Shown: positions 10,767 to 43,777, counted from the first letter of the stretch. The stretch is DNA of 64,000 nucleotides from an uncultured Clostridia bacterium (GCA_944387495.1 CALXFD010000004.1:6798-70797), one strand, 5' to 3'. Notes: generated by a model from the letters alone, not told the origin. Translations and numbers: made by a program.

Positions 10767-10842
<76 letters not shown>

Positions 10843-15331: not shown

Positions 15332-16525
15332 TTAAGACCTTGTTGGTAATAGTAAGTTTTCTAGTGCATATCCAGCTTTTCTATTATGAGAAAGTAGTGG
15401 ATGTACATAAAAGTCAAGTGTTGTACTTATTTGCGCATGACCAAGTCTTGCTGAAACAACAGCTATATCAACATTTTGTGCAACTAGTAAACTTGCATTT
15501 GTATGTCTTAATCCGTGAAAATTAATTACAGGTAGTCCTATTGTACCTACATATTTAACAAACCATTTACTTATAGAAGAAGGATGCATAGGTTTGCCAT
15601 CAGCTTGTACAAATAACCTATCAGAATTCGTCCATAATTCGCCATATAGCGATTTTTGATCTTCATACCATAACTTATATTCCTCAAGCAAAGAAATGAT
15701 AAATTCGGGTATTGCAATCTCTCTAATGGAGCTTTCTGTTTTAGGAACTTTTGTAAATACTCCCATATCTGATAGATACTGACTAGAACGGTTAATACTT
15801 ATAATTCCATTTCTAAAATCAACATCTTGCCATTCTAATCCCATTAATTCACCTAAACGAACACCAGTAAAGATAGTAAGAATGATAGCAACTTTGTATT
15901 TAGTATCTTCTATTGTAAGTTTTTCTAAGTTTTCTAACAATATTTTAGTTTGCTCATCATCATAAGATCTTCTTTTAGGTTTTTTAGCTCTAGGTGGTTG
16001 AACACGTTCAGCAGGATTGCTTACAATTAATTGCCAGTAAACTGCTCTATGAAGCATTGCTCTTAATAGTCTGTGATGTTCTAAAATAGTTTTACCAGAT
16101 AAAGGCTTTTTAGTTTTTGAACCATTGTTACCTTTTTTTCTAACTAATTGAGTATCTCTTTCAAGTAAGTCATAGAATTTCATAATATCAGTTGGTCTTA
16201 TTTTGTTAATATAGAAATGTCCGAAATATGGTAAAATTCTTGTTTCTAACATTCTACAATATCGTTTGTATGTTGTAGGAGCTAGTTCTTTTGAACCATA
16301 ATCTCTTTTCCATAATTCAACAAATTCAGAAAATTTAAGAGATTTACCATCTATGACTAAACAGTTTTGTACTTCAGTAACAAATTTTGCTAGTTCAACT
16401 TCTGCTTCTTTTTTAGTTCCATGAATAGTTTTTCTGTGTATCATGGGCCTTCCACTTAGGTCAAATCCTTCTGATACTGTTAACCTGTAACTATTTTTTC
16501 CTCTTTTTTCTATACTCCCAGCCAT
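15332..16525 (-). CDS. int: phage-type tyrosine integrase
   Basis: Catalytic signature FTGVRLGEL .. HGLRHTNASLL .. LGHAQISTTLDFYVH (R-HxxR-Y); N-terminal SAM-like core-binding domain; adjacent to att. Confidence 0.9.
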   Translation of the reverse strand: MAGSIEKRGKNSYRLTVSEGFDLSGRPMIHRKTIHGTKKEAEVELAKFVTEVQNCLVIDGKSLKFSEFVELWKRDYGSKELAPTTYKRYCRMLETRILPYFGHFYINKIRPTDIMKFYDLLERDTQLVRKKGNNGSKTKKPLSGKTILEHHRLLRAMLHRAVYWQLIVSNPAERVQPPRAKKPKRRSYDDEQTKILLENLEKLTIEDTKYKVAIILTIFTGVRLGELMGLEWQDVDFRNGIISINRSSQYLSDMGVFTKVPKTESSIREIAIPEFIISLLEEYKLWYEDQKSLYGELWTNSDRLFVQADGKPMHPSSISKWFVKYVGTIGLPVINFHGLRHTNASLLVAQNVDIAVVSARLGHAQISTTLDFYVHPLLSHNRKAGYALENLLLPTRS

Positions 16526-23031: not shown

Positions 23032-25380
23032 ATGGGAATAGAAGAACAATTATCTGAGGAAGATATAAGAAACATGTATATAACACCGGCTTTGACCAAA
23101 AAATGGAGTCTGGAAAAGCAAATTAGAAGTGAAGTTTATTTTACTGCTGGAAGAGTAATTGTAAGAGGAAATATGTCTGCAAGAAAAAAAGGAGAAAAAG
23201 CAGATTATATATTATATTATAATAGTTCTAAACCTATTGCTGTGGTAGAAGCTAAAAAGAATACGCTATCAGTAGGAGCAGGAATGCAACAAGCAATGAA
23301 TTATGCAAAAATTTTAGATATTCCTTTTGCGTATTCAACTAATGGAAAAGCTTTTTTAGAACATGATTTTTTAACTGGAAAAGAGCGAGAAATTTCAATG
23401 GATGAATTTCCTTCTCCAGAAGAATTGTGGAATAGATATAAGATAGGGAAAAATCTTACATTGGATGAAGAAAAAATTATTAATGAACCATATTATTATG
23501 CCCCAGGAACAAATAAACCAAGATACTATCAAAGGATAGCAATTAATAGAACATGTGAAGCGATAGCAAGAAATCAAAAAAGAATACTATTAGTTATGGC
23601 TACAGGTACTGGAAAAACATTTACAGCTTTTCAAATTATACATAGGTTAAGAAAAGCGGGATTAAAAAAGAAAATACTTTATTTAGCAGATAGAAATATG
23701 CTTATAGATCAAACTATGAGTCAGGATTTTCAACCATTTAGTAATATAATGACTAAAGTAGAAAATAGAAAAATGGACAGCTCTTATGAAATATATATGG
23801 CATTATATCAACAACTTACTGATGGACAAGGGACAGATATATTTAAAAATTTCCAGAGAGATTTTTTCGATTTAATTATTGTAGATGAATGCCACAGAGG
23901 GAGTGCAGCTGACGACTCAAATTGGAGAAGAATATTAGAATATTATAGTAGTGCTACTCAAATTGGTTTAACTGCGACTCCAAAAGAAGATAAGGAAGTA
24001 TCTAACATAAGCTATTTTGGAGAACCAATTTATACATATTCACTAAAACAAGGAATAGATGATGGGTTTTTAGCTCCTTATAAAGTTATAAGAGTTAATT
24101 TAGATAAAGATTTAGTTGGATATAGACCAGAGGCAGGTAAGACTGATGTAAATGGTAATATCATAGATACAGATGAGACATATTATCAAGCTGATTTTGA
24201 CAAGAAAATAATTATAGATGAAAGAACACAAGTAGTAGCAAAAAGAGTTACTGAGTTCTTGAAGAATACAAATAGATATAATAAAACAATAGTTTTTTGT
24301 ATCGATATAGAACATGCTGAAAGAATGAGACAAGCATTAGTTAATGAAAATTCAGATATGATGTTAGAAAATCCAAATTATATTATGCGAATTACAGGTG
24401 ATAATCAAGAGGGAAAAGATCAATTAGAAAATTTTATAGATGTTGAAGAAAAATATCCAACAATTGTAACAACTAGCAAATTGTTAACAACGGGAGCTGA
24501 TTGTAAAACCTGTAAATTAATAGTGTTGGATTCTAATATTAATTCAATGACAGAATTTAAACAAATTATTGGTAGAGGAACTAGAATTAGGGAGGATTTT
24601 GGTAAAACATATTTTACAATATTGGATTTTAGAAATGCAAGTAGATTATTTAGTGATCCTGACTTTGATGGTGAACCAATTTCAATAAAAGTAGTAAAAC
24701 CTGGTGAACCAATGCCAACAGAAGATGAAGACAAAATTGAAAATAGTGGCGATGATACTAAACCTACTGATAAAAATAATGTAGATATAAATCATCCCGG
24801 AAAAACAGTTAATACGAATACAAAAATTAGAGTTAATGGTGTAGATGTAAATATCTATAATGAGATATGTTCATATTATGATAAAGATGGAAAATTAGTA
24901 ACCGAATCATTGAAAGATTTTAGTAAAAGAAGTATTTTAAACGAATATGCTTCATTAAATGATTTTATTAATAAATGGAATTCAACAGATAGGAAGCAAG
25001 CAATACTAGATGAATTAAAGGAACAAGGAGTATTACTTGATGAACTACGAAAAGATGTAGGAAATGAAGATATCGGAGATTTTGATTTGATTTTACATAT
25101 TGCTTATGATAAAAAACCTCTTACCAGATATGAAAGAGTAAATAAAGTATTAAAAAAAGGATATTTATATAAATATTCTGAGATGGCTCAAAATATTTTA
25201 AAAGATTTATTAGAAAAATATAGTGATAATAATGAATTAGAACTTACTGATACCAAAATATTACAATTAAAACCATTTGAGGGGTATGGATCTCCAATGG
25301 AAATTGTAGATGTATTTGGAGGAAAAGAGAAATATATAGAAGCTGTGGAAGAATTAGAAGATGAATTATATGCAAGTTAG
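23032..25380 (+). CDS. hsdR: type I restriction enzyme R subunit
   Basis: N-terminal PD-(D/E)xK KADYILYY..VVEAKK; helicase motifs VMATGTGKT, IIVDECHRG, LTATP, QIIGRGTR. Confidence 0.9.
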   Translation: MGIEEQLSEEDIRNMYITPALTKKWSLEKQIRSEVYFTAGRVIVRGNMSARKKGEKADYILYYNSSKPIAVVEAKKNTLSVGAGMQQAMNYAKILDIPFAYSTNGKAFLEHDFLTGKEREISMDEFPSPEELWNRYKIGKNLTLDEEKIINEPYYYAPGTNKPRYYQRIAINRTCEAIARNQKRILLVMATGTGKTFTAFQIIHRLRKAGLKKKILYLADRNMLIDQTMSQDFQPFSNIMTKVENRKMDSSYEIYMALYQQLTDGQGTDIFKNFQRDFFDLIIVDECHRGSAADDSNWRRILEYYSSATQIGLTATPKEDKEVSNISYFGEPIYTYSLKQGIDDGFLAPYKVIRVNLDKDLVGYRPEAGKTDVNGNIIDTDETYYQADFDKKIIIDERTQVVAKRVTEFLKNTNRYNKTIVFCIDIEHAERMRQALVNENSDMMLENPNYIMRITGDNQEGKDQLENFIDVEEKYPTIVTTSKLLTTGADCKTCKLIVLDSNINSMTEFKQIIGRGTRIREDFGKTYFTILDFRNASRLFSDPDFDGEPISIKVVKPGEPMPTEDEDKIENSGDDTKPTDKNNVDINHPGKTVNTNTKIRVNGVDVNIYNEICSYYDKDGKLVTESLKDFSKRSILNEYASLNDFINKWNSTDRKQAILDELKEQGVLLDELRKDVGNEDIGDFDLILHIAYDKKPLTRYERVNKVLKKGYLYKYSEMAQNILKDLLEKYSDNNELELTDTKILQLKPFEGYGSPMEIVDVFGGKEKYIEAVEELEDELYAS

Positions 25381-25391
25381 GAGAAAGAATA

Positions 25392-26879
25392 ATGGGAATA
25401 GGAAATATATTAAAAAGACTACAAGATATCATGAGAAATGATGAAGGAGTAAATGGAGATGCACAACGATTAGAACAAATTGTATGGATATTGTTTTTAA
25501 AAGTGTATGATGCTAAAGAAACACAATGGGAATTTGATGACGAAGGATATGTCTCAGTAATTCCAGAAGAATTAAGATGGAGAAATTGGGCGGTAGATAA
25601 GAAAGATGGGAAAGCATTGACAGGTGAAGAATTACTTAATTTTATTAATAATGAATTGTTTCCAAGATTAAAGAACTTAGATATAGATGCAGACACACCG
25701 ATAAAAAAGGCAATTGTAAAATATACATTTACAGACATTAATAATTATATGAAAAATGGTATATTACTAAGACAAGTAATCAATATTATTGATGAAATAA
25801 AATTTACTAACCCTAATGAAAGACATGAATTTAACGAAATCTATGAAACTATGTTAAAAGAGTTACAAAGTGCAGGAAATGCAGGAGAATTTTATACTCC
25901 TAGACCAGTTACTAACTTTATGGTAAATATGATAAAGCCTAAATTAGGAGAAAAGATTGCAGACTTTGCTTGTGGTACAGGAGGATTTTTAACTTCAGCT
26001 TTAGATTATTTAAAAGAGCAAGTAAAAACAGCAGAGGATTTGGATTTATATAATGATTCAATATATGGTGTAGAAATGAAATCATTACCATATTTATTGT
26101 GTATTACTAATTTATTGCTACATGACATAGATAATCCTAAAGTAGAGCATAGAAATAGTTTTGATAGAAACATAAAAGATTATTCTGAAGATGAGAAATA
26201 TGATGTAGTATTAATGAATCCACCTTATGGGGGAAATTTGTTGAAAGAATATTTAGTTAATTTTCCATCAAATTTAAGAGGATCAGAAACAGCAGATTTA
26301 TTTATAGCATTAATCATGTATAGACTTAAGTCTTTTGGAAGAGCGGCAGTAATACTTCCAGATGGATTCTTGTTTGGAACAGATAATACTAAAATAAATA
26401 TAAAAACAAAACTACTAAAAGAATTTAATTTACATACTATAATTAGATTACCAAGTTCTGTTTTTGCACCATATACATCTATAACAACTAACATATTATT
26501 TTTTGATAAATCAATGCCAACAAGTGAAATATGGTTTTATAGATTGGATATGCCAGAGGGATACAAGAATTTTTCAAAAACAAAACCAATAAAAAATGAG
26601 CATTTTAAAGAAGTAAGCGAGTGGTGGGATAATAGAAAAGAAATTATAGACGAAAAACAAAACGAGGAATCTACTACAACTTATAAATCTAAATGTTATT
26701 CAGTAAAAGAAATAATTGAAAATGGATATAATTTGGATTTGTGTGGATATCCTCATGAAGAAGAAATAATATTAGAGCCTAAAGAATTAATTGCAAAGTA
26801 TCAAAAAGAAAGAGCTAAATTGAATGCGGAAATTGATAAAATTTTAGAAGAAGTAAGTAAATTATTGGAGGAAGACTAA
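25392..26879 (+). CDS. hsdM: type I R-M N6-adenine methyltransferase subunit
   Basis: FYTPRPV, motif I DFACGTGGFL, motif IV LMNPPYGG. Confidence 0.9.
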   Translation: MGIGNILKRLQDIMRNDEGVNGDAQRLEQIVWILFLKVYDAKETQWEFDDEGYVSVIPEELRWRNWAVDKKDGKALTGEELLNFINNELFPRLKNLDIDADTPIKKAIVKYTFTDINNYMKNGILLRQVINIIDEIKFTNPNERHEFNEIYETMLKELQSAGNAGEFYTPRPVTNFMVNMIKPKLGEKIADFACGTGGFLTSALDYLKEQVKTAEDLDLYNDSIYGVEMKSLPYLLCITNLLLHDIDNPKVEHRNSFDRNIKDYSEDEKYDVVLMNPPYGGNLLKEYLVNFPSNLRGSETADLFIALIMYRLKSFGRAAVILPDGFLFGTDNTKINIKTKLLKEFNLHTIIRLPSSVFAPYTSITTNILFFDKSMPTSEIWFYRLDMPEGYKNFSKTKPIKNEHFKEVSEWWDNRKEIIDEKQNEESTTTYKSKCYSVKEIIENGYNLDLCGYPHEEEIILEPKELIAKYQKERAKLNAEIDKILEEVSKLLEED

Positions 26880-28480
26880 TGACTGCTCAAGAATTAAAAA
26901 ATTCAATTCTTCAATTAGCAATACAAGGAAAATTAGTAAAGCAAGATCCGAATGATGAACCAGCAACTGTATTGCTTGAAAAAATAAAAGAAGAACGTAA
27001 AAAATTAATCAAAGAAAAGAAAATAAAAAAAGAAAAATACTCAGAAATATATAAAGATCCTTCAGATAATCATTATTATGAGAAGTTTGAAGATGGTACT
27101 ATAAATGATATCACAGAAGAAATTCCTTTTGATATTCCTGATACTTGGAAATGGGTTAGATTAAAGAATATTGCAAGATTATTTTCTGGGTATGCTTTTA
27201 AGGGACAAGATTTGACAGATACAAAACAAGTAAGAGTAATTAGAATATCAGACTTTGATGACAATAGATTAAAAAATAACAAAATTGTAAGAATAGATGA
27301 AAATAAAATTTATGATAAATTTATTATAGAAAATAATAGTATTTTATTAGCGATGACAGGTGGAACTGTCGGAAAAAGTATTTTGTTAAAAAATATTAAA
27401 GAAAAAATGTATTTAAACCAACGTATTGTGTCTATTAGTCAATTGTATTCTTTTATATGCATTGATTATTTAGATCTTAACATCCAATCACCATATATAC
27501 AGCAACTCATAAATGATAATAAAAATTCAACTAATGATAATATTTCTATGAATTTAATTAATAACTTTTTAATACCATTACCGCCATTTAATGAACAACA
27601 ACAAATCATAAATAAGATAGAAAACGTTTTACCATATATTGAAAAATATAATTTTGTATATAGTAAATTAACAAGATTAAACAATTCATATAAAGAAGAA
27701 TTAAAAAAATCAATCCTACAATATGCAATACAAGGGAAATTAGTACAACAAGATCAAAATGATGAACCAGCAGATATTTTAATTAATAAAATTCTAAGCG
27801 AAAAACGTGAATTAATTAAATCTAAACAAATTAAAAAAGAAAATTTATCTGTAATTTATAAAAATAATACAGATAATCAATTTTATGAGAAGTTTGATGA
27901 TGGTACTATTAAAAATATTACAGAAGAAATACCTTTTGAAATTCCAGATAATTGGGCTTGGACTAGACTTGAAAATCTAACAACCAAACAAATAAAAAGG
28001 GGAAAATCACCTAAATATATTAATAAGAGCAATGTATATGTCTTTTCACAAAAATGTAATCAGAAAGATGGAATAATTTCATTAGAACAGTCTAAATTTT
28101 TAGATGAAAAGACTTTAAAGAAATATGATGATACAGATTACATAATTAAATCGGATATTGTTATAAATTCAACTGGTAATGGCACCTTAGGTAGAATAGG
28201 AATTATAAAAGATAGAAATATATATTCCAATAAAGTTGTTACTGATTCTCATGTTACTTTGGTACGAGTATTTGATGAGATAGAAGCTGATTACATATTC
28301 TACTTTTTAAAATGTAATCAAAAATATTTAGAATTGAAAGCAACCGGATCAACAAATCAAACAGAATTAAGCCCCGAAGTAATAAAAAAAATGATGGTTC
28401 CTTTACCTAATAATATAGAGCAACAAAAAATTAAAAACAAAATAGAAAAAATATTTAACACGATAAAAACAGCTGAATAG
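26879..28480 (+). CDS. hsdS: type I R-M specificity subunit (expressed copy; two TRDs, each preceded by a conserved region)
   Basis: TAATG overlap with hsdM; repeated conserved segments ILQ.AIQGKLV.QD.NDEPA .. YEKF.DGTI..ITEEIPF.IPD.W.W. Confidence 0.9.
   Translation: MTAQELKNSILQLAIQGKLVKQDPNDEPATVLLEKIKEERKKLIKEKKIKKEKYSEIYKDPSDNHYYEKFEDGTINDITEEIPFDIPDTWKWVRLKNIARLFSGYAFKGQDLTDTKQVRVIRISDFDDNRLKNNKIVRIDENKIYDKFIIENNSILLAMTGGTVGKSILLKNIKEKMYLNQRIVSISQLYSFICIDYLDLNIQSPYIQQLINDNKNSTNDNISMNLINNFLIPLPPFNEQQQIINKIENVLPYIEKYNFVYSKLTRLNNSYKEELKKSILQYAIQGKLVQQDQNDEPADILINKILSEKRELIKSKQIKKENLSVIYKNNTDNQFYEKFDDGTIKNITEEIPFEIPDNWAWTRLENLTTKQIKRGKSPKYINKSNVYVFSQKCNQKDGIISLEQSKFLDEKTLKKYDDTDYIIKSDIVINSTGNGTLGRIGIIKDRNIYSNKVVTDSHVTLVRVFDEIEADYIFYFLKCNQKYLELKATGSTNQTELSPEVIKKMMVPLPNNIEQQKIKNKIEKIFNTIKTAE
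27063..27154 (+). repeat. hsdS inversion repeat IR1 (plus copy)
   Basis: 92 bp, perfect reverse complement of 30633-30724. Confidence 0.85.
27717..27967 (+). repeat. hsdS inversion repeat IR2 (plus copy)
   Basis: ~251 bp, identical as far as checked by eye to the reverse complement of 29820-30070. Confidence 0.85.
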
Positions 28481-28492
28481 ACAGCTGTTTTT

Positions 28493-29296
28493 TTACCAAT
28501 CAATTATTTTGTTTACAATTTCTTGCTGCTCTGTACTAGTTCTTCTTAAATATATTCTAGTTGTTTCGATACTTTCGTGCCCCATCAAATCTGCTAAAAG
28601 CGATATATCATTAAATCTATCTAAAAAACTCTTAGCAAATCTATGTCTAAAAGAATGAGGATATATTACTTTTGGATTTAAGCCATATTTTATACCAAGT
28701 TTTTTTAATTCTCCGCTAATTCCCCTAGCTGTTATACGGTTTCCATATTTATTTTTAAATATAAAGCCTTCTGTAAGATTACTTTTATCAAACCATGATA
28801 AAGCTTCTTTTTGTAGTTTTTCCGGTATATATATTCTTCTTAATTTTCCACCCTTAGAATATAAATCAAAATATCCTATCTTTACATGTTCAACCTTAAA
28901 CTGAATTAATTCACTAATTCTAGCACCAGTTGCTGTAATAAATCTTATAACAAAATACCAATACATTTCTTTATCATTTTTTAGACATTTTTTAAAATAT
29001 TCATAATCAGCTTCACTTATAACATTTTCCAAAAAGTTCTTTTGTTGCAATTTTAGTAATGGTAGCCTTAAATGGTCTTTTTTTAAATATTTTAAGTAAG
29101 TATTTATTGCTTGAATTCTTAAATTTACAGTCTTAATTTTATAATTTTCAACTAGAAATGTTTTATATGCTTGTAAATTTTTTTTATTAATTATTAAATA
29201 TTTTGATTGGTATTGATTAACTGTAAATAAGTAAGACTTAATAGTATTTTGTGAAAGATTTCTTTTCCTTAAATATTCTTCAAAACTGAATGCCAT
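28493..29296 (-). CDS. tyrosine site-specific recombinase (hsdS shufflon invertase)
   Basis: TGARISEL .. HSFRHRFAKSF .. LMGHESIETTRIYL (R-HxxR-Y); located between the inverted hsdS copies. Confidence 0.85.
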   Translation of the reverse strand: MAFSFEEYLRKRNLSQNTIKSYLFTVNQYQSKYLIINKKNLQAYKTFLVENYKIKTVNLRIQAINTYLKYLKKDHLRLPLLKLQQKNFLENVISEADYEYFKKCLKNDKEMYWYFVIRFITATGARISELIQFKVEHVKIGYFDLYSKGGKLRRIYIPEKLQKEALSWFDKSNLTEGFIFKNKYGNRITARGISGELKKLGIKYGLNPKVIYPHSFRHRFAKSFLDRFNDISLLADLMGHESIETTRIYLRRTSTEQQEIVNKIIDW

Positions 29297-29333
29297 ACTG
29301 AAACCCTCCTTTCCAATATGGCATTATATAAAA

Positions 29334-30724
29334 TTATATTATTGAAAACAAAGTATTGAGCTTTTTTGTGATTTTTAATTGTTCGTTATGAGGCGGAATT
29401 GCTATTAATGTTTTAGCTATGTCTTTCATAACCCAATTTTTATTTCCAACCCCTTTTGTATTTTCTTTACATTGTTTTTGAACCAGTGGCGATAAGATTA
29501 AATTTTTTAAATATTCCCTATCTATATATTCATTATTGAATTTTAATAAAGCTAGACTAACAAATAAGCTAAATTCTATGTCGGTTTCTACTATAACAGG
29601 TATTCCTGTTGTTCCGACTTTACTTAAAATAATGTCTCCTTTCTGAGGATTACATCTTTGAAATAATATTTTGTGTTCTTCTTTTGTAATGTGCTTTGTA
29701 TTGTCTAATTTTAATGTTCCAGAACTTATATCTTTAACAGAAATAAAAGGAACACCATTTTCTACATATTTAGGAGTTTTATGCGTTCCATCAGTTAATT
29801 TTGTTAAAATATTTACTATTCTAGTCCAAGCCCAATTATCTGGAATTTCAAAAGGTATTTCTTCTGTAATATTTTTAATAGTACCATCATCAAACTTCTC
29901 ATAAAATTGATTATCTGTATTATTTTTATAAATTACAGATAAATTTTCTTTTTTAATTTGTTTAGATTTAATTAATTCACGTTTTTCGCTTAGAATTTTA
30001 TTAATTAAAATATCTGCTGGTTCATCATTTTGATCTTGTTGTACTAATTTCCCTTGTATTGCATATTGCAATATTGATTTCTTTAAATCTTCTTTATAAT
30101 TATTATTTATTTTTTCTAATCGCTCATATATATCATCATATCTGCTTATATATGGCAATAAATTTTCATATTTTTCTATAATACGTTGTTGTTCTTTTAG
30201 TGGTGGTATAGGAATTAAGAATTTTTTTAACCACCCAGTATTTAAATTTTTCTGAGCAGCTCCTTTTACATTTCTATTTATTTGTTCCTGAAAAAGTAAA
30301 GATTCCATCCATAATACAATATAGTGTTTATTCATTATATCTAAATGGTCTCTGAAAAATCCTAAACTCACAAAAATACAAAATTCTTCATCTGTTTCAA
30401 TTATTTGAGGTTTACCCATAGTTCCAACTCTACCAAACAATATGTCACCTTTATGTGGTTTACTACCATAAGAAGCTTTGTCATATGTTTCTCGACTTAC
30501 CTTTTTAGCTTTTGAAAAATCAATTTTTCCACCAGAAATATCTTTTACAGATAAGAAATATACTCCTTCGCTTGTATAATCTGGTTTATATGTAAAACCT
30601 AAATTTATTTCTTCAAAATTTTCAATTCTACACCATTTCCAAGTATCAGGAATATCAAAAGGAATTTCTTCTGTGATATCATTTATAGTACCATCTTCAA
30701 ACTTCTCATAATAATGATTATCTG
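29334..30724 (-). CDS. hsdS: silent, 5'-truncated alternative hsdS cassette (two different TRDs, no start or promoter of its own)
   Basis: Frame stays open upstream of the listed ORF through 30724, where homology to active hsdS residue ~62 begins; TRDs differ from the active copy. Confidence 0.8.
29820..30070 (-). repeat. hsdS inversion repeat IR2 (minus copy)
   Basis: Inverted copy of 27717-27967; the encoded 90 aa are identical in both ORFs. Confidence 0.85.
30633..30724 (-). repeat. hsdS inversion repeat IR1 (minus copy)
   Basis: Perfect inverted copy of 27063-27154. Confidence 0.85.
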
Positions 30725-37208: not shown

Positions 37209-37808
37209 ATGAAGTTAGAAATATCTAATAAAAACAAAGTAGATGAAATAATATTTGTTACACATAATAAAGGAAAAATTGCTTCTGCACAAAGAGCATT
37301 AAAAAATGTAAATTTAAAAATATTTGAATATGAATTAGAAGAGCCAAGAAGTGATGATATAAAATATATATCTAAATACAAAGTAGAACAGGCATATAAA
37401 ATTGTAAATAAGCCTTGTATATCACTAGATTGTGGATTTTGGATTGATGAGTTAAATGGTTTCCCAAGGGCTTTTGTTAATTTTGCACTAGAAACTATTG
37501 GAATTCAAGGAATTTTAAAATTAATGGAAGGAAAAGATAATCGAAAATGCAGATTTACAGAGTGCCTATCTTATTATGATGGAAATGAACTTAAACAATT
37601 CATGGGATATCATGAAGGATTTTTATCAGAAAAAGTATTAGGAAAAGATACTAGTGATAAATGGTCAGAGTTGTGGTACATTTATATTCCTTATGGATAT
37701 GACAAAACTTTGGCTCAGATGACAGAAGAGGAGAGAGAAAATAGAATAAGAAATAAATCTGTAAATTCAATGGAAGAATTTGCAAAGTGGTATGAAGAAA
37801 ATCGATAG
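37209..37808 (+). CDS. non-canonical purine NTP pyrophosphatase (Ham1/ITPase family)
   Basis: FVTHNKGKIASA .. EEPRSDD .. LDCGFWIDELNGFPRAFVNFALETIGIQGILKLM matches the ITPase pattern. Confidence 0.7.
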   Translation: MKLEISNKNKVDEIIFVTHNKGKIASAQRALKNVNLKIFEYELEEPRSDDIKYISKYKVEQAYKIVNKPCISLDCGFWIDELNGFPRAFVNFALETIGIQGILKLMEGKDNRKCRFTECLSYYDGNELKQFMGYHEGFLSEKVLGKDTSDKWSELWYIYIPYGYDKTLAQMTEEERENRIRNKSVNSMEEFAKWYEENR

Positions 37809-37982
37809 TTAACAAAATGTAAAAGATAATAGGAAATGATAAACTATAAAAATAATTAAGAAAAATACAAGTCCACAAAAAATGAAAAATATAGTAAAAA
37901 TAGGCAATCACAAAAGATAAAAAAATGCAAATAATAGTTAGAAAAGATAAAATTTATAAAAAAATGGAAAAAATTACAAAAA

Positions 37983-38015
37983 ACTATTGACAAATATTGT
38001 CAATAGTTTTATACT
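37983..38015 (+). promoter_or_regulatory. strong sigma-A-type promoter embedded in a palindromic operator
   Basis: TTGACA (37987-37992), 17 nt, TATACT (38010-38015); ACTATTGACA / TGTCAATAGT 10-bp arms (37983-37992 and 37998-38007). Confidence 0.55.
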
Positions 38016-38107
38016 ATATACAGATTTCGAAATTCAAAATTATTTTAATTTAAAATTTTATTCAAAAAATCAGTTGTTCAACAAAAATTCATTAAACAAC
38101 AAAAACA

Positions 38108-38138
38108 TATATAATTTCAATATTTGAGGCTATTATAA
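38108..38138 (+). repeat. segment A left inverted repeat
   Basis: TATATAATTTCAATATTTGAGGCTATTATAA, perfect inverted copy at 38332-38362. Confidence 0.8.
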
Positions 38139-38331
38139 AATAATGTTATATTATTTAGATAAAGATTTTAAAACAGTAAAAGATAGTAAATGGAAAAAAC
38201 TTGGAAAATATATTAAAGTGAAATTTTAGATTTTTAGTATACAAAATTCATGAACAATAAAATAATTTAGATGTTAAAAAAGTAAAAAAATATAAAAAGT
38301 ATATTTAAAGAAATATATCATCATACTCCGA

Positions 38332-38362
38332 TTATAATAGCCTCAAATATTGAAATTATATA
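38332..38362 (-). repeat. segment A right inverted repeat
   Basis: Perfect 31-bp reverse complement of 38108-38138. Confidence 0.8.
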
Positions 38363-38375
38363 AAAAAATTAAATC

Positions 38376-38409
38376 TTAAATGCTTCAAATGTTTGAGGCT
38401 ATTATATCT
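38376..38409 (+). repeat. segment B left inverted repeat
   Basis: TTAAATGCTTCAAATGTTTGAGGCTATTATATCT; 32/34 inverted match to 38634-38667; shares core TTTGAGGCTATTATA with segment A. Confidence 0.8.
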
Positions 38410-38633
38410 TATAATTTATATCTAAATAAAATAAAAAAGTTTATTCATATAATAAATCCATATAAAAAATTGGTAATAATAAACTTTATTGCGGCTCATG
38501 TAGTCTTATGCAACTATTTTTCTTGTTATAAACTAAAATACGTCAATAAATTAAATAGAAAATTAGATTTTCTATTTAAAAAATTCACATCCATAACCCC
38601 TAAAATATGATAAAAGTTAATTCCTAAAAAAAT

Positions 38634-38667
38634 AGATATAATAGCTTCAAACATTTGAAGTATTTAA
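38634..38667 (-). repeat. segment B right inverted repeat
   Basis: Inverted copy (2 mismatches) ending 21 nt before the comM start. Confidence 0.8.
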
Positions 38668-38688
38668 GTAGAAAGGACAGCAGAGAGT

Positions 38689-40227
38689 TTGTTATCAAAT
38701 GTAAAAAGTATAACTTTACTAGGTTTAAAAGGTCATTTAATATCGATTCAAGTTGATATTTCAAGAGGAATGCCTACTTTTGAAATAGTAGGCTTGCCTG
38801 GAACTAGTATAAAAGAAGCGAAGGAAAGAGTGAAAATTGCTATAAAAAATGCAGGTATAGAATTTTTAAGTAGAAAAATAGTAGTAAATTTATCACCTGC
38901 AAATATTAGGAAAGAAGGCTCTTCTTTTGATTTGCCAATAGCTGTGGGTATTTTACTTGCTTCTGAAAAGGTGAAATATGTAAAAGAGCTTTTTAATGAA
39001 AGTATTTTTGTAGGAGAACTTTCATTAGATGGCACAATTGAAAAGATTAATGGAATATTACCAATTTGCATAGAGGCTAAAAGATTAGGTATTAAAAATA
39101 TATTTTTACCTGTTCAAAATGCAAAAGAAGCAAGTATTGTAAAAGGATTAAATATAATTCCTATTAATAATTTAAAAGAGATTATTGATTTTTTGAATGG
39201 AAATCTTGAAATTAAATTTGAAAATAATAATTTTAATATGCTAAAAGGAGAGCCAACATATGATGTTGATTTTTCAGAAGTTAAAGGTCAAGAAAATGTA
39301 AAAAGGGCATTAGAAATTGCAGCAGCTGGTGGGCATAATTGCTTGTTAATTGGAAGCCCAGGAAGCGGGAAGACAATGCTTGCAAAAAGAATACCAACAA
39401 TCTTGCCTGATATGAATTTAGAAGAAATATTAGAAGTTACTAAAATTTATAGTATTGTTGGATTAACTTCAAATGAACAGCCATTAATAGAGACGAGACC
39501 ATTTAGAAGTCCACATCATACTATAACATCAACCTCATTAGTAGGTGGAGGTAAAAGCCCAAAACTTGGGGAAGTTAGCTTAGCACATTTGGGTGTGCTT
39601 TTTCTAGATGAGCTGACTGAATTTAATAAAAATACATTAGAGGTATTAAGAGGACCATTAGAAGATAGAAAAATAACTATAAGTAGAATTAATTCTGCAA
39701 TATCTTATCCTTGTAATTTTATGCTAATTGCTAGTATGAATCCATGTCCATGTGGATATTATGGGTCAAAAGAAAAAGCCTGTACTTGTACAGAAGAGCA
39801 GATAAGAAAATATATAAATAAAATAAGTGGCCCTATGTTAGATAGAATTGATATACATATTGAAGTTAATAGTGTAAATTATGATAATTTAAGTTCAAAA
39901 GTAGAAACTGAAAAATCAATAGATATACGAAAAAGAGTAAATACAGCAAGAAAAAAACAATTAGAAAGATATAAAAAATACAAAATTTATTCTAATTCAG
40001 AATTAAATTCTACCCAATTAGAGTTATTTTGTAAATTAGATGAAAAATGTAAAAGAATTCTAGAAATTGCATTTGAAAAACTAGCATTAAGTTCAAGAGC
40101 ATATTCAAGAATTTTGAAAGTTGCAAGAACAATAGCAGATTTAGCTAATTCAGATAATATAAAACAAGAACATTTAGCAGAAGCTATACAATATAGAAGT
40201 TTAGATAGAAAATACTGGAAACATTAG
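38689..40227 (+). CDS. comM: ComM/YifB Mg-chelatase-like AAA+ ATPase
   Basis: TTG start; Walker A LIGSPGSGKTMLA, Walker B LFLDEL; N-terminal Lon-like domain; Cys cluster CPCGYYGSKEKACTC. Confidence 0.9.
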   Translation: MLSNVKSITLLGLKGHLISIQVDISRGMPTFEIVGLPGTSIKEAKERVKIAIKNAGIEFLSRKIVVNLSPANIRKEGSSFDLPIAVGILLASEKVKYVKELFNESIFVGELSLDGTIEKINGILPICIEAKRLGIKNIFLPVQNAKEASIVKGLNIIPINNLKEIIDFLNGNLEIKFENNNFNMLKGEPTYDVDFSEVKGQENVKRALEIAAAGGHNCLLIGSPGSGKTMLAKRIPTILPDMNLEEILEVTKIYSIVGLTSNEQPLIETRPFRSPHHTITSTSLVGGGKSPKLGEVSLAHLGVLFLDELTEFNKNTLEVLRGPLEDRKITISRINSAISYPCNFMLIASMNPCPCGYYGSKEKACTCTEEQIRKYINKISGPMLDRIDIHIEVNSVNYDNLSSKVETEKSIDIRKRVNTARKKQLERYKKYKIYSNSELNSTQLELFCKLDEKCKRILEIAFEKLALSSRAYSRILKVARTIADLANSDNIKQEHLAEAIQYRSLDRKYWKH

Positions 40228-40239
40228 AAGGAGGATAAT

Positions 40240-41217
40240 ATAGAAAAGATAACAATAGATAGTAAGATATATCCAGAAAACTTAAAAAATATAAAAAATA
40301 GTCCAAAAGCACTATATTACAAAGGAAATATAGAATTACTAAATACAAATAAAATAGCAATAATAGGTTCAAGGTTAAATAGTGAATATGGGGAAATATT
40401 AGCAAAAAAATTTGCAAAAGAATTGGTAAAACAAGGTATTACAATAGTAAGTGGAATGGCAATAGGGATAGATTCAATAGCACATAAAGCAGTACTAGAA
40501 GAACATGGAAATACAATAGCAGTTTTGCCATGTGGCTTAGAAAATATATATCCAGAAGAAAATAAAAAATTATTCCAAGATATAATAAATAATAATGGTT
40601 TAGTTTTAAGCGAATATCCACCAAAGAAACAAGCAACATCAAAGAAATTTTTAGAAAGAAATAGAATAGTAAGTGGCTTATCAATAGGAGTTCTAATAGT
40701 AGAAGCAATGCATAGAAGTGGAACTAGTGTAACTGCAAGATATGCAATAGAACAAAAAAGAAAAGTCTTTGTGCCACCACATGAAATCGGAGATAAAAAT
40801 GGTGTAGGAACTAATAAATTATTAAAACAAGGAGCTATAATAGTAACAAAAACAAAAGATATAATAGATAACTTTAAATTTCTAAAATATAAAGACATGG
40901 AAGAAATAAAGCTAAATTGTGAGAAAAAATTCAAAAATATTTCCCCAATAGACAAAAAGCAAACACAAAAAGATAGTAAAATACTTATAAATAAAAAAAT
41001 AGAAGTACTAAAAAACAAAAGAAAATTACAAATAAATAGTAAAGAAACAAATGACTTACACAAAATTTATGAACTAATAGAAAATACTGCAATTACAATA
41101 GATGAAATACAAGAAAAAACCAATATAAACATAAGCAAAATAAATAATTGCTTATTTATCCTAGAAATAGAAGGATATATTAAAAAAGTAGCAGGAGGTG
41201 GTTATATATGCAATTAA
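40240..41217 (+). CDS. dprA: DNA-processing protein DprA/Smf (non-canonical start; N-terminus extended beyond the listed ORF)
   Basis: Rossmann core IVSGMAIGIDSIAHKA; in-frame upstream sequence encodes the typical N-terminus IYPENLKNIKNSPKALYYKGN..IAIIGSR; AAGGAGGA RBS then ATA at 40240. Confidence 0.8.
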   Translation: MEKITIDSKIYPENLKNIKNSPKALYYKGNIELLNTNKIAIIGSRLNSEYGEILAKKFAKELVKQGITIVSGMAIGIDSIAHKAVLEEHGNTIAVLPCGLENIYPEENKKLFQDIINNNGLVLSEYPPKKQATSKKFLERNRIVSGLSIGVLIVEAMHRSGTSVTARYAIEQKRKVFVPPHEIGDKNGVGTNKLLKQGAIIVTKTKDIIDNFKFLKYKDMEEIKLNCEKKFKNISPIDKKQTQKDSKILINKKIEVLKNKRKLQINSKETNDLHKIYELIENTAITIDEIQEKTNINISKINNCLFILEIEGYIKKVAGGGYICN

Positions 41218-41567
41218 AAGAATTAGGAGATTTAGGCGAAAACATAGCATGCGATTACTTACAAAATCATGAATACCAAATAATCGAAAGAAATTTTAAG
41301 TGTAGGCAAGGAGAAATTGATGTAATAGCAGCAGATTTACAAAAGAAAGAATTAGTATTTATAGAAATTAAAACAAGGACAAGTTTAAATTATGGCTTAC
41401 CATCAGAAGCTGTAACTAAGAAAAAAAGAGAACATATATTTAAAAGTATAGAATATTACATATATAAAAACCATATAAGAAATATAGCAATAAGATTAGA
41501 TGTGATGGAAATATATTTATACAGAAGCTCAAATAAAGTAAATCACATAAAAAAAGCTTTTATATAA
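41208..41567 (+). CDS. yraN: YraN-family (UPF0102) endonuclease-like protein
   Basis: LGENIACDYLQNHEYQIIERNFKCRQGEIDVIA..FIEIKTR signature. Confidence 0.8.
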   Translation: MQLKELGDLGENIACDYLQNHEYQIIERNFKCRQGEIDVIAADLQKKELVFIEIKTRTSLNYGLPSEAVTKKKREHIFKSIEYYIYKNHIRNIAIRLDVMEIYLYRSSNKVNHIKKAFI

Positions 41568-42523: not shown

Positions 42524-43777
42524 ATGATAACAAAAATAAAAATAAATAATTGTTTTACTTTTAATAAACCAGTAGAATTAAATTTAAAAGCAGATATGAG
42601 AACAAAAAGATTTTCTTGTAATGTGTACACAGTAAACAATATAAATATTATTAAATCAGCAATAATATATGGACCAAATAATACAGGAAAAACAGCATTC
42701 ATATCATCAGTCAAAGCAATAAAAGAAACTCTTTTAAACGAAAGCATACATTTAAAAAGTAATATATTTAATAAAAATAACATTTGTGAGCTAGGAATTT
42801 CATTCATATACGAAGAAAAAAATTACAATTATGAATTCAAATATGATGATGTTAGTCACGAATTTATATACGAAAAAATGTCACAAATTGTTTACGAACA
42901 AAATGGAAAAGAAAACGAAAATATAATTTTTGAAAAAAATACGATAGACAAAATCTATCAATGTAAATCAGACGAAAAATTAAAAAATGCATTAGAAATA
43001 ATTTCAAAAGACAATATACTTATTTATACATTAGCAACAGAAAATTTTGAAATTTTAAAAACAGTCAAAAACATATTAACAAGTATTGCAAAAAACATAG
43101 AAATAGTAGATATGAATAACATTCCAAATAAAAAAACAATAGAATTACTAAAACTAAATGATACTACAACAAAAAAAGTAGTTGATTTTATAAAAAATGC
43201 AGATTTATATTTAGAAAACTATCGATATGAAGAAAATCCAAAATTAGATATAGAAATGGATACAGAACAAATTGATGAAAAAACATTAAAAAATCAAAAT
43301 ATAGTAGAACAAGCAAAGTTAGTTTCTGTATATAAAGGAAAAGCAGTTCCAAGTATCCAATTTGACTCAGTAGGTACAAGAAAATTTGCCTCACTTGCAA
43401 GTTATATTATAGAAAGCTTAGAGAAAGGAAAAACTTTATTTGTAGATGAACTAGATAGTAGTCTACATTCTAAAATAACAAGAGCAATTATAAGTATGTT
43501 TAATAATAGTTTAAATAAAAATGCTCAATTAATTGCAACTTTACATGATATAAGTTTATTAGATTGCAAAAGAATGTTTAGAAAAGAGCAAATATGGTTT
43601 ACAGATAAAAATGAAAATGAAACTGAATTATACTCATTAAAAGACTTTAACTATGCAGACAGTGGAATTAGAGAAACTTCTGATATTCAAGATAGATATA
43701 ATAAAGGAGCTTTTGGAGCAGTACCTAATCCAGATTTAATATCTTGCCTATTGGAGGTGGAAGATATTGAGGAATAG
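42524..43777 (+). CDS. AAA_15/21-type ABC-like ATPase (AbiLi-like)
   Basis: Walker A GPNNTGKT, Walker B LFVDELDSSLH, LIATLHD. Confidence 0.8.
   Translation: MITKIKINNCFTFNKPVELNLKADMRTKRFSCNVYTVNNINIIKSAIIYGPNNTGKTAFISSVKAIKETLLNESIHLKSNIFNKNNICELGISFIYEEKNYNYEFKYDDVSHEFIYEKMSQIVYEQNGKENENIIFEKNTIDKIYQCKSDEKLKNALEIISKDNILIYTLATENFEILKTVKNILTSIAKNIEIVDMNNIPNKKTIELLKLNDTTTKKVVDFIKNADLYLENYRYEENPKLDIEMDTEQIDEKTLKNQNIVEQAKLVSVYKGKAVPSIQFDSVGTRKFASLASYIIESLEKGKTLFVDELDSSLHSKITRAIISMFNNSLNKNAQLIATLHDISLLDCKRMFRKEQIWFTDKNENETELYSLKDFNYADSGIRETSDIQDRYNKGAFGAVPNPDLISCLLEVEDIEE

What the first reader, a model, noticed from the sequence alone, without database searches (positions are those of the whole stretch)
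37983..38667. Two tandem segments flanked by 31-34-bp inverted repeats in the long 5' region of comM-dprA-yraN: putative double invertible switch
A near-consensus promoter inside a 10-bp-arm palindrome (37983-38015) fires toward comM, which starts ~670 nt away. In between lie segment A (38139-38331, flanked by perfect 31-bp IRs) and segment B (38410-38633, flanked by 34-bp IRs with 2 mismatches). All four arms share the core TTTGAGGCTATTATA. Each arm contains its own small palindrome (TCAA..TTGA), as a recombinase site would. The interiors are unrelated to each other, which argues against two MITE copies. The last arm ends 21 nt before the comM start. The geometry resembles 5'-UTR invertons such as the Clostridioides difficile flagellar switch. 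That would imply phase-variable expression of the DNA-uptake/processing genes.
Basis: seen in the sequence. Interest (0 to 1): 0.7.

Follow-up and report, generated by a model that had tools for sequence, protein, structure and literature searches.

The report
Inverted-repeat cassettes in the comM leader
Two cassettes of about 250 bp, each closed by long inverted repeats, lie between a strong promoter and the DNA-uptake gene comM, and the same design recurs in related gut bacteria, so it is a real control element, but the data cannot yet say whether it flips as a DNA switch or acts as an RNA hairpin.

Summary
Segment A has perfect 31-bp arms. Segment B has 34-bp arms with two mismatches. All four arms share one core, and a near-consensus promoter lies about 670 nt before comM.

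- **Conservation.** Homologous repeat pairs sit at the same place in at least three other uncultured species (ComM 67-69% identical); a fourth, at 72%, shows the right arm only. The right arm always ends 1-2 nt before the ribosome-binding site, and the distal promoter is conserved too. This is a selected part of the comM leader, not a MITE: no other copy was found in 64 kb or in two collection scans.
- **Signs of RNA pairing.** 13 of 33 arm pairs show compensatory changes. Every arm mismatch is a G·U wobble on the sense strand.
- **Fixed orientation.** The interiors keep a strand-specific make-up across species. B is never inverted in 39 contigs.
- **One inversion.** Segment A shows an inverted junction in two contigs of one strain. 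That strain differs from a non-inverted sister by a single base, which lies inside the repeat.

My best reading (0.45) is a conserved leader hairpin acting on the mRNA, with occasional inversion of A. A true phase-variable switch (0.35) stays open and needs read-level data.

The parts
37987..38015 (+). Distal sigma-A-type promoter of the comM operon (TTGACA-17-TATACT). It lies inside a 14-bp-arm palindrome (37980-38010).
   Evidence: scores it 11 of 12; one search shows the palindrome. ACTATTGACA-N17-TATA(C/A)T is conserved upstream of the left arm in L105, L118 and L120, and also in L109, which lacks the repeats. The palindrome itself is specific to this species.
38108..38138 (+). Left arm of cassette A
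   Evidence: 31 of 31 complementary to 38332-38362. Invariant in 12 distinct haplotypes.
38139..38331 (+). Interior of cassette A: 193 nt, 16% G+C, purine-rich on the sense strand (G 21, C 10).
   Evidence: Found inverted at the right junction in L035 and L040.
38332..38362 (+). Right arm of cassette A
   Evidence: The T-to-G variant (TTAGATA) occurs only in the two contigs with the inverted junction.
38363..38374 (+). 12-nt spacer between the cassettes. The right arm of A and the left arm of B can also pair with each other (31 nt, 81%).
   Evidence: pair I5; one search gives weak hairpin-type Rfam hits only.
38375..38408 (+). Left arm of cassette B (34 nt; a weaker extension runs to 38418).
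   Evidence: Homologous to the left arms in L105, L118 and L120.
38409..38634 (+). Interior of cassette B: about 20% G+C, G-poor (in the core 38419-38624, C 26 against G 15), with the motif ACATCC at 38587-38592. The 76-codon ORF 38380-38610 is probably not a gene.
   Evidence: ACATCC(T) lies 20-40 nt before the right arm in L105, L118 and L120. No family match for the ORF. No matching ORF is called in relatives.
38635..38668 (+). Right arm of cassette B. It ends 2 nt before the Shine-Dalgarno sequence.
   Evidence: The arm followed by TAGAAAGGA is conserved in L105, L118 and L120; L104 has ...CATAGGGAAAGGAG.
38671..38677 (+). Shine-Dalgarno sequence GAAAGGA of comM
   Evidence: Read from the sequence; invariant block in alignment A3.
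38689..40227 (+). comM (YifB-family Mg-chelatase-like AAA ATPase), TTG start
   Evidence: TIGR00368, E = 9.9e-193.
40423..41217 (+). dprA as called from the first canonical start codon. Homology to DprA of relatives begins at about 40238.
41208..41567 (+). yraN (UPF0102)

Best explanation
**Proposal.** The two repeat-bounded cassettes are a conserved cis-acting part of the long 5' leader of the comM-dprA-yraN mRNA. They act mainly as RNA.

**Mechanism**
- Transcription starts at the conserved distal promoter (37987-38015) and runs through both cassettes.
- In the transcript the two arms of each cassette pair into a 27-35-bp, almost perfect helix. This helix closes a G-poor, largely unstructured stretch of 134-206 nt.
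- For the B-type cassette, the 3' strand of the helix ends 1-2 nt before the ribosome-binding site.
- A helix of that length is a substrate for double-strand-specific RNase III. The most likely action is therefore processing of the leader. That would set the 5' end, and so the stability and translation, of the comM message.
- The G-poor interior may also serve as an entry site for the termination factor Rho.
- Cassette A is a second, species-specific copy of the module.
- Because the arms of A are a perfect 31-bp repeat, the DNA between them can occasionally invert. This has happened in one strain. In this reading the inversion is a by-product, not the normal mode of control.

**Shown:** the repeats, their conservation and compensatory changes, their fixed position next to the ribosome-binding site, the conserved promoter, the constant orientation, and one inverted junction.

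**Inferred:** that the leader is transcribed, that the helix forms in vivo, RNase III cleavage, Rho involvement, and the effect on expression.
For: 1. **Same place in other species.** Homologous repeat pairs lie directly upstream of comM in other species whose ComM is 67-69% identical. The upstream genes there are not syntenic. The pairs are L105-L108 (34 nt arms, 181 nt interior), L118/L119 (35 nt, 147 nt) and L120-L125 (27 nt, 134 nt). L104 (ComM 72%) shows the right arm only.
2. **Compensatory changes.** On alignment A1, 97% of cells are paired and 13 of 33 pairs have changes on both sides. None of 500 shuffles reaches these values, and sliding the 3' partner by 1-3 columns drops pairing to 31-41%. 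RNAalifold recovers the same helix.
3. **Mismatch type.** Every one-sided difference between arms is G·U or U·G on the sense strand: two in B, one in L105/L118, one in L120. There is no A·C pair and no transversion.
4. **Fixed position.** The helix base is followed directly by TAGAAAGGA in all B-type copies.
5. **Conserved promoter.** It lies 55-127 nt upstream of the left arm in four species.
6. **Fixed orientation.** B is in the window's orientation in 39 of 39 contigs, and A in 29 of 31. All contigs within each relative species agree. L105 and L118 interiors are collinear. All B-type interiors have C/G of 1.7-4.8 on the sense strand against 0.6-0.8 in comM, and all carry ACATCC near the right arm.
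7. **No adjacent recombinase.** None lies next to the element in any species.
Against: - No function for such a helix is demonstrated, and no Rfam family matches it.
- The half of each arm next to the interior, AATATYTGAGGYYATTAT, is conserved in sequence in both arms. A double-stranded DNA-binding protein such as a recombinase explains that more easily than a plain RNA stem does.
- An unstructured loop of 134-206 nt is unusual for a leader hairpin. Its persistence fits the minimum length needed to bend DNA for inversion.
- A has been inverted at least once. The only base that differs between that strain and its non-inverted sister over 2.2 kb lies inside the repeat. This resembles the repeat variants that lock the C. 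difficile flagellar switch (PMC12282940).
- The wobble-only pattern rests on 3-4 events. A C-to-T bias on this strand (positive GC skew) could partly produce it.
- My test for an anti-Shine-Dalgarno pairing by the interior was negative.
Confidence: 0.45

Rival explanations
1. **Programmed invertons.** Each cassette would be a site-specific inversion switch in the 5' UTR, flipped by a recombinase encoded elsewhere, as RecV does in C. difficile.
- The orientation seen in assemblies would be the strongly preferred state, probably OFF. The C>G, G-poor interior would let Rho terminate in that orientation.
- Rare flipping would then give a competence-ON subpopulation.
- The conserved half of each arm next to the interior would be the recombinase site.
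For: - The geometry matches known 5'-UTR switches. Arms are 27-35 bp and interiors 134-206 bp, between a promoter and the start codon. The flagellar switch is 154 bp and sits in the flgB leader, where Rho acts on the OFF orientation (PMC7446863).
- All arms share a conserved core in four species.
- The interior has a strand-specific make-up, as an orientation-sensing switch needs.
- An inverted-A junction occurs in L035 (72 nt) and L040 (2 nt, megahit k=141). These come from two separate assemblies (ERZ1478591 and ERZ27234806; the studies behind them are not identified) and are identical over 2.2 kb.
- That strain differs from the non-inverted L031 only by a T-to-G change inside the right arm. 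By chance a single difference would fall there about 31 times in 2200, or 1.4%. Repeat variants are known to lock the flagellar switch (PMC12282940).
- The window holds two tyrosine recombinases.
Against: - No inversion of B appears in 39 contigs. None appears in 12 contigs of three other species.
- 13 of 14 haplotypes of this species carry A in one orientation, although they differ by 10-47 substitutions per 2.2 kb.
- Both inverted junctions lie at contig ends.
- The nearest recombinase is 9 kb away inside an hsdS shufflon. Its own repeats do not contain the core.
- The outer halves of the arms differ between A, B and the relatives, yet stay complementary within each pair. A shared recombinase site does not require that.
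- All mismatches are sense-strand wobbles.
- The small palindrome inside each arm weakens in the relatives (10 of 12 in L105, 8 of 12 in L120, by inspection).
Confidence: 0.35
2. **Operator pairs.** The arms would be paired binding sites on the DNA for a regulator that loops the leader to repress or activate comM. No RNA role and no inversion would be involved.
For: - A conserved 18-19-bp sequence is present in every arm in four species, in two inverted copies about 165-240 bp apart.
- The W arms contain a small dyad, TCAA..TTGA.
Against: - Looping operators do not need 27-35 bp of mutual complementarity.
- The outer halves covary rather than being conserved.
- In L120 the conserved ATTAT part is kept only in the left arm.
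Confidence: 0.07
3. **Mobile-element remnants.** The cassettes would be copies or relics of a small non-autonomous mobile element (MITE, Correia or ERIC type) that inserted upstream of comM. Any regulatory effect would be incidental.
For: - The terminal inverted repeats and the size of about 200-290 bp fit such elements.
- Two adjacent copies share repeat sequence.
- Correia elements also sit in leaders and form RNase III substrates (PMC2649163).
Against: - The window holds only these four arms in 64 kb.
- No further copy from this organism or its relatives turned up in the GTDB genome scan or the JGI metagenome scan. Those hits were single, scattered, and in unrelated DNA.
- In 862 kb of fetched loci, the core occurs in relatives only upstream of comM.
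- The position relative to the ribosome-binding site is conserved in four species whose upstream genes differ.
- The conserved part is the inner end of each arm, not the outer terminus, and there is no convincing target-site duplication.
Confidence: 0.06
4. **The inverted junction is an assembly error.** The assembler would have mis-joined at the repeat, so there would be no inversion at all.
For: - Both cases lie at contig ends. L035's head is exactly the reverse complement of the left arm plus the start of A in the sister strain. That is the sequence a wrong turn at the repeat would produce.
- One scaffold of this locus (L056) has a clear artefact at the promoter palindrome.
Against: - Two assemblies from different accessions and assemblers agree.
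- L040 was built with k=141, far longer than the repeat.
- Both contigs carry a private base change in the arm that none of the 12 complete haplotypes has.
Confidence: 0.2

Closest known systems
Clostridioides difficile flagellar (flgB) switch and cwpV switch, both flipped by the recombinase RecV
   Same: A short segment bounded by inverted repeats lies inside a long, AT-rich 5' UTR, between a sigma-A promoter and the first gene. Control acts after transcription initiation, through Rho for flgB (PMC7446863). The recombinase is encoded elsewhere. Repeat variants can lock the orientation (PMC12282940).
   Different: In C. difficile both orientations are measured in every population and RecV is required. 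Here B is never seen inverted, A is inverted only in one strain at contig ends, and no recombinase is linked. The arms here are longer (27-35 bp), covary between species, and abut the ribosome-binding site.
Correia repeat-enclosed elements of Neisseria, and ERIC elements of enterobacteria
   Same: Units bounded by inverted repeats and transcribed within leaders. Their RNA folds into a long hairpin that RNase III can cut or that alters mRNA stability (PMC2649163).
   Different: Those are dispersed, multi-copy mobile families with conserved outer termini. This element was found only upstream of comM, at a fixed distance from the ribosome-binding site, and its inner ends are the conserved part.
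RNase III processing stalks, such as the long-range helices that flank 16S and 23S rRNA in precursor transcripts (textbook knowledge, not tested here)
   Same: A long, nearly perfect helix forms from sequences about 150-200 nt or more apart and brackets an RNA segment. Complementarity is kept through compensatory changes.
   Different: Here the bracketed segment is poorly conserved, AT-rich and without predicted structure. The stalk sits in an mRNA leader next to a ribosome-binding site. Cleavage is not shown.
Phase-variable Type I hsdS shufflons
   Same: A real inversion system of this kind lies in the same window, with a tyrosine recombinase between two hsdS genes. This organism therefore uses site-specific inversion.
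   Different: Its repeats are 97-429 nt long and lie within coding sequence. They do not contain the comM core, and the recombinase sits inside that locus.

Membership tests
Inverton (site-specific DNA inversion switch) | Inverted repeats flank a short segment next to a regulated gene. | tested here: met
   arms of 31 and 34 bp, interiors of 193 and 226 bp, 20 nt before comM.
Inverton (site-specific DNA inversion switch) | Both orientations occur in a population or among close strains. | tested here: inconclusive
   A has 2 contig ends of one strain with the inverted junction against 29 in the window's orientation. B has 0 of 39. Relatives have 0 of 12. Assemblies report only the majority state, and no reads were available.
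Inverton (site-specific DNA inversion switch) | A dedicated or global site-specific recombinase acts on the repeats. | tested here: inconclusive
   The window holds two tyrosine recombinases: 15332-16525 (phage-type) and 28493-29296 (in the hsdS shufflon). Neither is adjacent and neither is linked to the core. None lies in the 1-3 kb flanks of the relatives.
Inverton (site-specific DNA inversion switch) | The interior carries orientation-dependent regulatory content. | tested here: inconclusive
   B-type interiors have a strand-specific make-up (C/G 1.7-4.8) and the ACATCC motif. B holds one promoter-like site facing comM (TTCACA-16-TATGAT, 38584-38611), but it is not conserved in relatives.
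MITE / REP / Correia-type dispersed repeat | Many copies are dispersed in the genome. | tested here: not met
   There are four arms only in 64 kb. The genome and metagenome scans returned no other locus of this lineage. In relatives the core occurs only upstream of comM. No whole genome of the species was available.
MITE / REP / Correia-type dispersed repeat | Outer termini are conserved and a target-site duplication is present. | tested here: not met
   The outer halves differ between A, B, L105 and L120, while the inner halves are conserved. The flanks are A-runs with no clear duplication.
Structured cis-regulatory leader RNA | The element lies in a transcribed leader downstream of a promoter. 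| tested here: inconclusive
   A near-consensus promoter is conserved in four species. No terminator-like site scores apart from the left arm of B itself. No expression data were available.
Structured cis-regulatory leader RNA | Base pairing is maintained by compensatory changes. | tested here: met
   13 of 33 pairs have changes on both sides, 97% of cells are paired, and 0 of 500 shuffles reach these values. All one-sided changes are G·U. Caveat: DNA-level homogenisation of repeats would also keep the arms complementary.
Structured cis-regulatory leader RNA | The element belongs to a described RNA family. | tested here: not met
   Rfam 15 gives no match at gathering thresholds. At E values up to 5 there are only chance miRNA-hairpin hits.
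RNase III processing site | The helix is cleaved in vivo or in vitro. | not testable with these tools
   The only support is helix length (27-35 bp) and near-perfection.

The most novel reading that the evidence does not exclude
A clade of uncultured, low-G+C gut Clostridia-like bacteria would share an ancient family of 5'-UTR invertons placed directly against the ribosome-binding site of comM. Expression of the DNA-processing operon comM-dprA-yraN would then be phase-variable. The default orientation would let Rho terminate in the G-poor interior (competence OFF), and rare flipping by a recombinase encoded elsewhere would give a competent subpopulation. This species would carry two such switches in series.
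Probability: 0.3. Interest if true: 0.75.

Novelty: new member of a known kind. Interest (0 to 1): 0.45.

Why it matters
Nothing is known about how competence-type genes (comM, dprA) are controlled in these uncultured gut bacteria. This element is a conserved and clearly delimited control module with no Rfam match. It sits exactly where transcription and translation of the operon can be gated.

If it is an RNA processing or attenuation element, it is a new leader motif tied to DNA-uptake genes. If it flips, it would make competence phase-variable, which bears on gene flow in the gut.

Either way the question is now directly testable. The arms, the promoter, the homologous loci and the two samples carrying the inverted junction are all named.

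Tried and rejected
- **Dispersed repeat.** I scanned GTDB genomes and JGI metagenomes with TTCAAN{2,3}TTTGARGCTATTATA. The hits were single and in unrelated DNA, none lay near a comM, and no other locus of this lineage turned up. One recurrent family in 48% G+C gut contigs lies upstream of a tgt-like gene. It shares 24 nt with the right arm of B but has a different architecture: tandem units of promoter, hairpin and terminator. I judged it coincidental.
- **Protein-level search for inverted B.** I searched for ORFs that exist only when B is inverted. No hit came back, not even the known 76-aa ORF, so the test says nothing.
- **Leader duplication in L056.** It is a 100-N scaffold gap.
- **Right-arm TATAAT as the proximal comM promoter.** No -35 element appears at 16-18 nt in either orientation (inspection). 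The TATAAT is also absent from the right arm of L120.
- **Interior anti-Shine-Dalgarno pairing.** Duplex energies were no better than shuffled controls in L118 and L120.
- **Leader peptide or the 76-aa ORF as a gene.** It has no family match. L105 has no canonical ATG/GTG/TTG start after the arm (inspection), and no gene is called there in relatives.
- **Homology between interiors.** None was detected in either orientation.
- **Wider occurrence.** 20 more distant ComM loci from IMG/VR, plus L109 and L114, have no long repeat next to comM.
- **Contig breaks at the right arm of A in Logan assemblies.** The 31-nt repeat equals k=31, so these breaks are not evidence of heterogeneity.

Full report
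**1. The observation**

The 880-nt spacer between a Ham1/RdgB-type gene (37209-37808) and comM (38689-40227, TTG start) holds two pairs of inverted repeats.
- Pair A has arms 38108-38138 and 38332-38362. They are 31 nt long and perfectly complementary, with 193 nt between them.
- Pair B has arms 38375-38408 and 38635-38668. They are 34 nt long with two mismatches, and extend more weakly to 44 nt.
- Three arms contain TTTGAGGCTATTATA exactly and the fourth has one mismatch. The 64-kb window holds no other copy.
- Dinucleotide shuffles of the spacer give inverted repeats of 10.9 nt on average and 14 at most.
- TTGACA-17-TATACT lies at 37987-38015, inside a palindrome with 14-bp arms.
- NCBIfam confirms comM, dprA and yraN.

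**2. The organism and its population**

The DNA is 25% G+C. The exact ComM, or variants at least 90% identical, occur only in metagenome assemblies and MAGs. The next relative is 72% identical, and a 64% relative is labelled 'Clostridia bacterium'.

I fetched contigs through four ComM variants and the neighbouring Ham1 gene and mapped each piece of the spacer onto them.
- 26 distinct contigs from many samples span both cassettes. All have the window's orientation.
- Counting partial contigs, A is in that orientation at 29 junctions and B at 39.
- The arms are invariant in 12 distinct complete haplotypes. The interiors vary about as much as the start of comM (2.6%, 3.8% and 3.4% of columns).

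**3. One strain with A inverted**

- L035 (ERZ1478591) starts with the reverse complement of the first 72 nt of A. This is joined through the right arm to the normal spacer, B and comM.
- L040 (ERZ27234806, megahit k=141) starts with TT followed by the right arm. TT is the dinucleotide expected for the inverted junction; the normal junction has GA.
- The two contigs are identical over 2.2 kb. They differ from the normally oriented L031 by one base, a T-to-G change inside the right arm of A. No complete haplotype carries that change.
- L035's head is otherwise the exact reverse complement of L031's left arm plus the start of A.
- Other haplotypes differ by 10-47 substitutions over the same 2.2 kb and all keep the normal orientation.

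I take the inversion as probably real, at about 0.8. It is recent, and it is linked in some way to the change in the repeat. Both junctions are at contig ends, so an assembly error is not excluded.

Logan contigs break at the 31-nt repeat because k=31, which says nothing about heterogeneity. They run through B without a break.

**4. The element is conserved in other species**

| Locus (ComM identity) | Arms | Interior |
|---|---|---|
| L105-L108 (69%) | 34 nt, one mismatch | 181 nt |
| L118/L119 (67%) | same arms, 35 nt | 147 nt |
| L120-L125 (67%) | 27 nt, one mismatch | 134 nt |
| L104 (72%) | right arm only; the contig starts 181 nt upstream | not known |

- The genes upstream differ from those in the window. 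The cassette therefore goes with comM, not with the neighbourhood.
- In every case the right arm is followed within 1-2 nt by TAGAAAGGA, the Shine-Dalgarno sequence.
- In every case ACTATTGACA-N17-TATA(C/A)T lies 55-127 nt upstream of the left arm.
- Two other lineages, L109 (70%) and L114 (64%), lack the repeats, as do 20 distant ComM loci from IMG/VR.
- In 862 kb of fetched DNA, the core occurs in relatives only at this position.

A dispersed mobile repeat is thus very unlikely. The module is a selected part of the comM control region. This species has two copies of the module and the relatives have one.

**5. What the arms say**

I aligned the five repeat pairs (alignment A1) and counted pairs on a 33-pair helix.
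- 97% of cells are paired.
- 13 pairs changed on both sides while keeping the pair.
- No shuffle out of 500 reaches these values, and slid registers give 31-41% pairing.
- The basal half of the helix, next to the flanks, covaries at almost every position.
- The apical half, AAUAUYUGAGGYYAUUAU, is conserved in sequence.

Every one-sided difference is a G·U or U·G pair on the sense strand. There are two in B, one shared by L105 and L118, and one in L120. There is no A·C pair and no transversion.

With 3-4 events this is suggestive, not decisive. I estimate about 0.02-0.05 under no RNA constraint, and somewhat more if C-to-T changes are favoured on this strand.

RNAalifold finds the long helix and nothing conserved inside it. 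The single-sequence fold gives two giant hairpins with z = -8.1.

**6. What the interiors say**

- The interiors cannot be aligned between A, B and the relatives.
- All B-type interiors are G-poor with C>G on the sense strand (C/G 1.7-4.8). The adjoining leader is similar, whereas comM has C/G 0.6-0.8.
- All carry ACATCC(T) 20-40 nt before the right arm.
- L105 and L118 are collinear at both ends.
- The orientation of the B-type cassette has therefore been stable across species.
- A is different: it is purine-rich on the sense strand (G 21, C 10).

Several ideas about the interior failed.
- I found no conserved promoter, no coding potential and no anti-Shine-Dalgarno pairing.
It weakens in L105 and L120.

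**7. Recombinases**

The window encodes two tyrosine recombinases.
- One, at 15332-16525, is phage-type and lies near a tRNA-Met gene.
- The other, at 28493-29296, lies between two hsdS genes joined by inverted repeats of 97-429 nt. This is a classic Type I hsdS shufflon.

Neither is adjacent to the comM leader, and the hsdS repeats lack the core. No recombinase lies in the flanks of the homologous loci. This is weak evidence against an inverton, because C. difficile RecV also acts at a distance (PMC7446863).

**8. Weighing the explanations**

Both main readings explain a conserved repeat pair inside a leader.

For an RNA hairpin:
- the wobble-only mismatches;
- covariation of the outer arm halves within one genome (A against B);
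- the fixed junction with the ribosome-binding site;
- the conserved orientation and composition of the interior;
- the absence of any inverted B.

For a DNA switch:
- the sequence-conserved inner half of every arm;
- the persistence of a long, unstructured interior, which DNA must have in order to bend but an RNA stem does not need;
- the observed inversion of A together with a private change in its repeat, which recalls the repeat variants that lock the flagellar switch (PMC12282940).

I put 0.45 on a leader hairpin acting on the mRNA, most plausibly through RNase III processing next to the ribosome-binding site, possibly with Rho loading on the G-poor interior. In that reading the inversion of A is an occasional by-product. 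I put 0.35 on true phase-variable invertons. The remaining 0.2 covers looping operators, a domesticated mobile relic and other readings, of which the two named ones take 0.07 and 0.06.

The two main readings are not exclusive. In C. difficile, too, the switch works through the leader RNA (PMC7446863).

**9. Novelty and value**

The kind of element is known under either reading. This particular module is not in Rfam, and my literature searches found no description of it. It is tied to comM across several uncultured species, abuts the ribosome-binding site, and is duplicated in tandem in this species.

The read-level test that would settle the question is simple, and the relevant samples are identified.

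Noticed in passing
window 23032-30440: Type I restriction-modification locus with an hsdS shufflon. It comprises hsdR, hsdM, hsdS (+), a 267-aa tyrosine recombinase (28493-29296, -) and a second, inverted hsdS. Inverted repeats of 97-429 nt join the two hsdS genes, so the system is probably phase-variable in specificity.
   Followed up: partly
window 40228-40423: Homology to the DprA of relatives starts at about 40238. That is in the same frame as comM, directly behind its TAA stop, with no stop codon in between. The first ATG/GTG/TTG, however, is at 40423. About 60 conserved N-terminal residues therefore lack a canonical start codon. The cause may be an ATA/ATT start, reinitiation or read-through. 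L105 (281-nt gap) and L109 (528-nt gap, DprA 202 aa) show similar gaps; L114 and L120 do not.
   Followed up: partly
window 10767-10842 and 15332-16525: A phage-type tyrosine integrase lies about 4.5 kb from a tRNA-Met gene. A TnpV-like gene appears upstream in some strains (L051). This may be an integrated element.
   Followed up: no
L056 2415-2514: The apparent 155-nt insertion in the leader of one strain is a run of 100 N with duplicated flanks at the promoter palindrome 37980-38010. It is a scaffolding artefact, not a duplication.
   Followed up: yes
L064 6200-6450; L067 9020-9170: Human-gut contigs of about 48% G+C carry 2-3 tandem units of about 110 nt upstream of a tgt-like gene. Each unit has TGGTATAAT, then the hairpin AGCTTCAAAC..TTTGAAGC, then a terminator-like hairpin. 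The units share 24 identical nt with the right arm of B. This is probably coincidence, but the tandem promoter and small-RNA-like units are unexplained.
   Followed up: partly
window 37980-38010: The spacer of the distal promoter in this species holds a reverse-complement copy of its own -35 region, which makes a perfect 14-bp-arm palindrome. The relatives keep only the left half. It could be an operator or a bidirectional -35, and on the minus strand it scores as terminator-like.
   Followed up: partly
window 42524-43777: A 417-aa AAA_21 (AbiEii-like ATPase) gene and several small unannotated minus-strand ORFs follow yraN. The content downstream of yraN differs between strains (FtsZ in L032, a 167-aa ORF in L021).
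   Followed up: no
L109 1179-1267: In the relative that lacks the cassette, a different 22-nt inverted repeat (TTTTTTAGTTACAATTCACAGC / GCTGTGAATTGTAACTATAAAA, 45 nt apart) lies just upstream of the conserved comM promoter.
   Followed up: no
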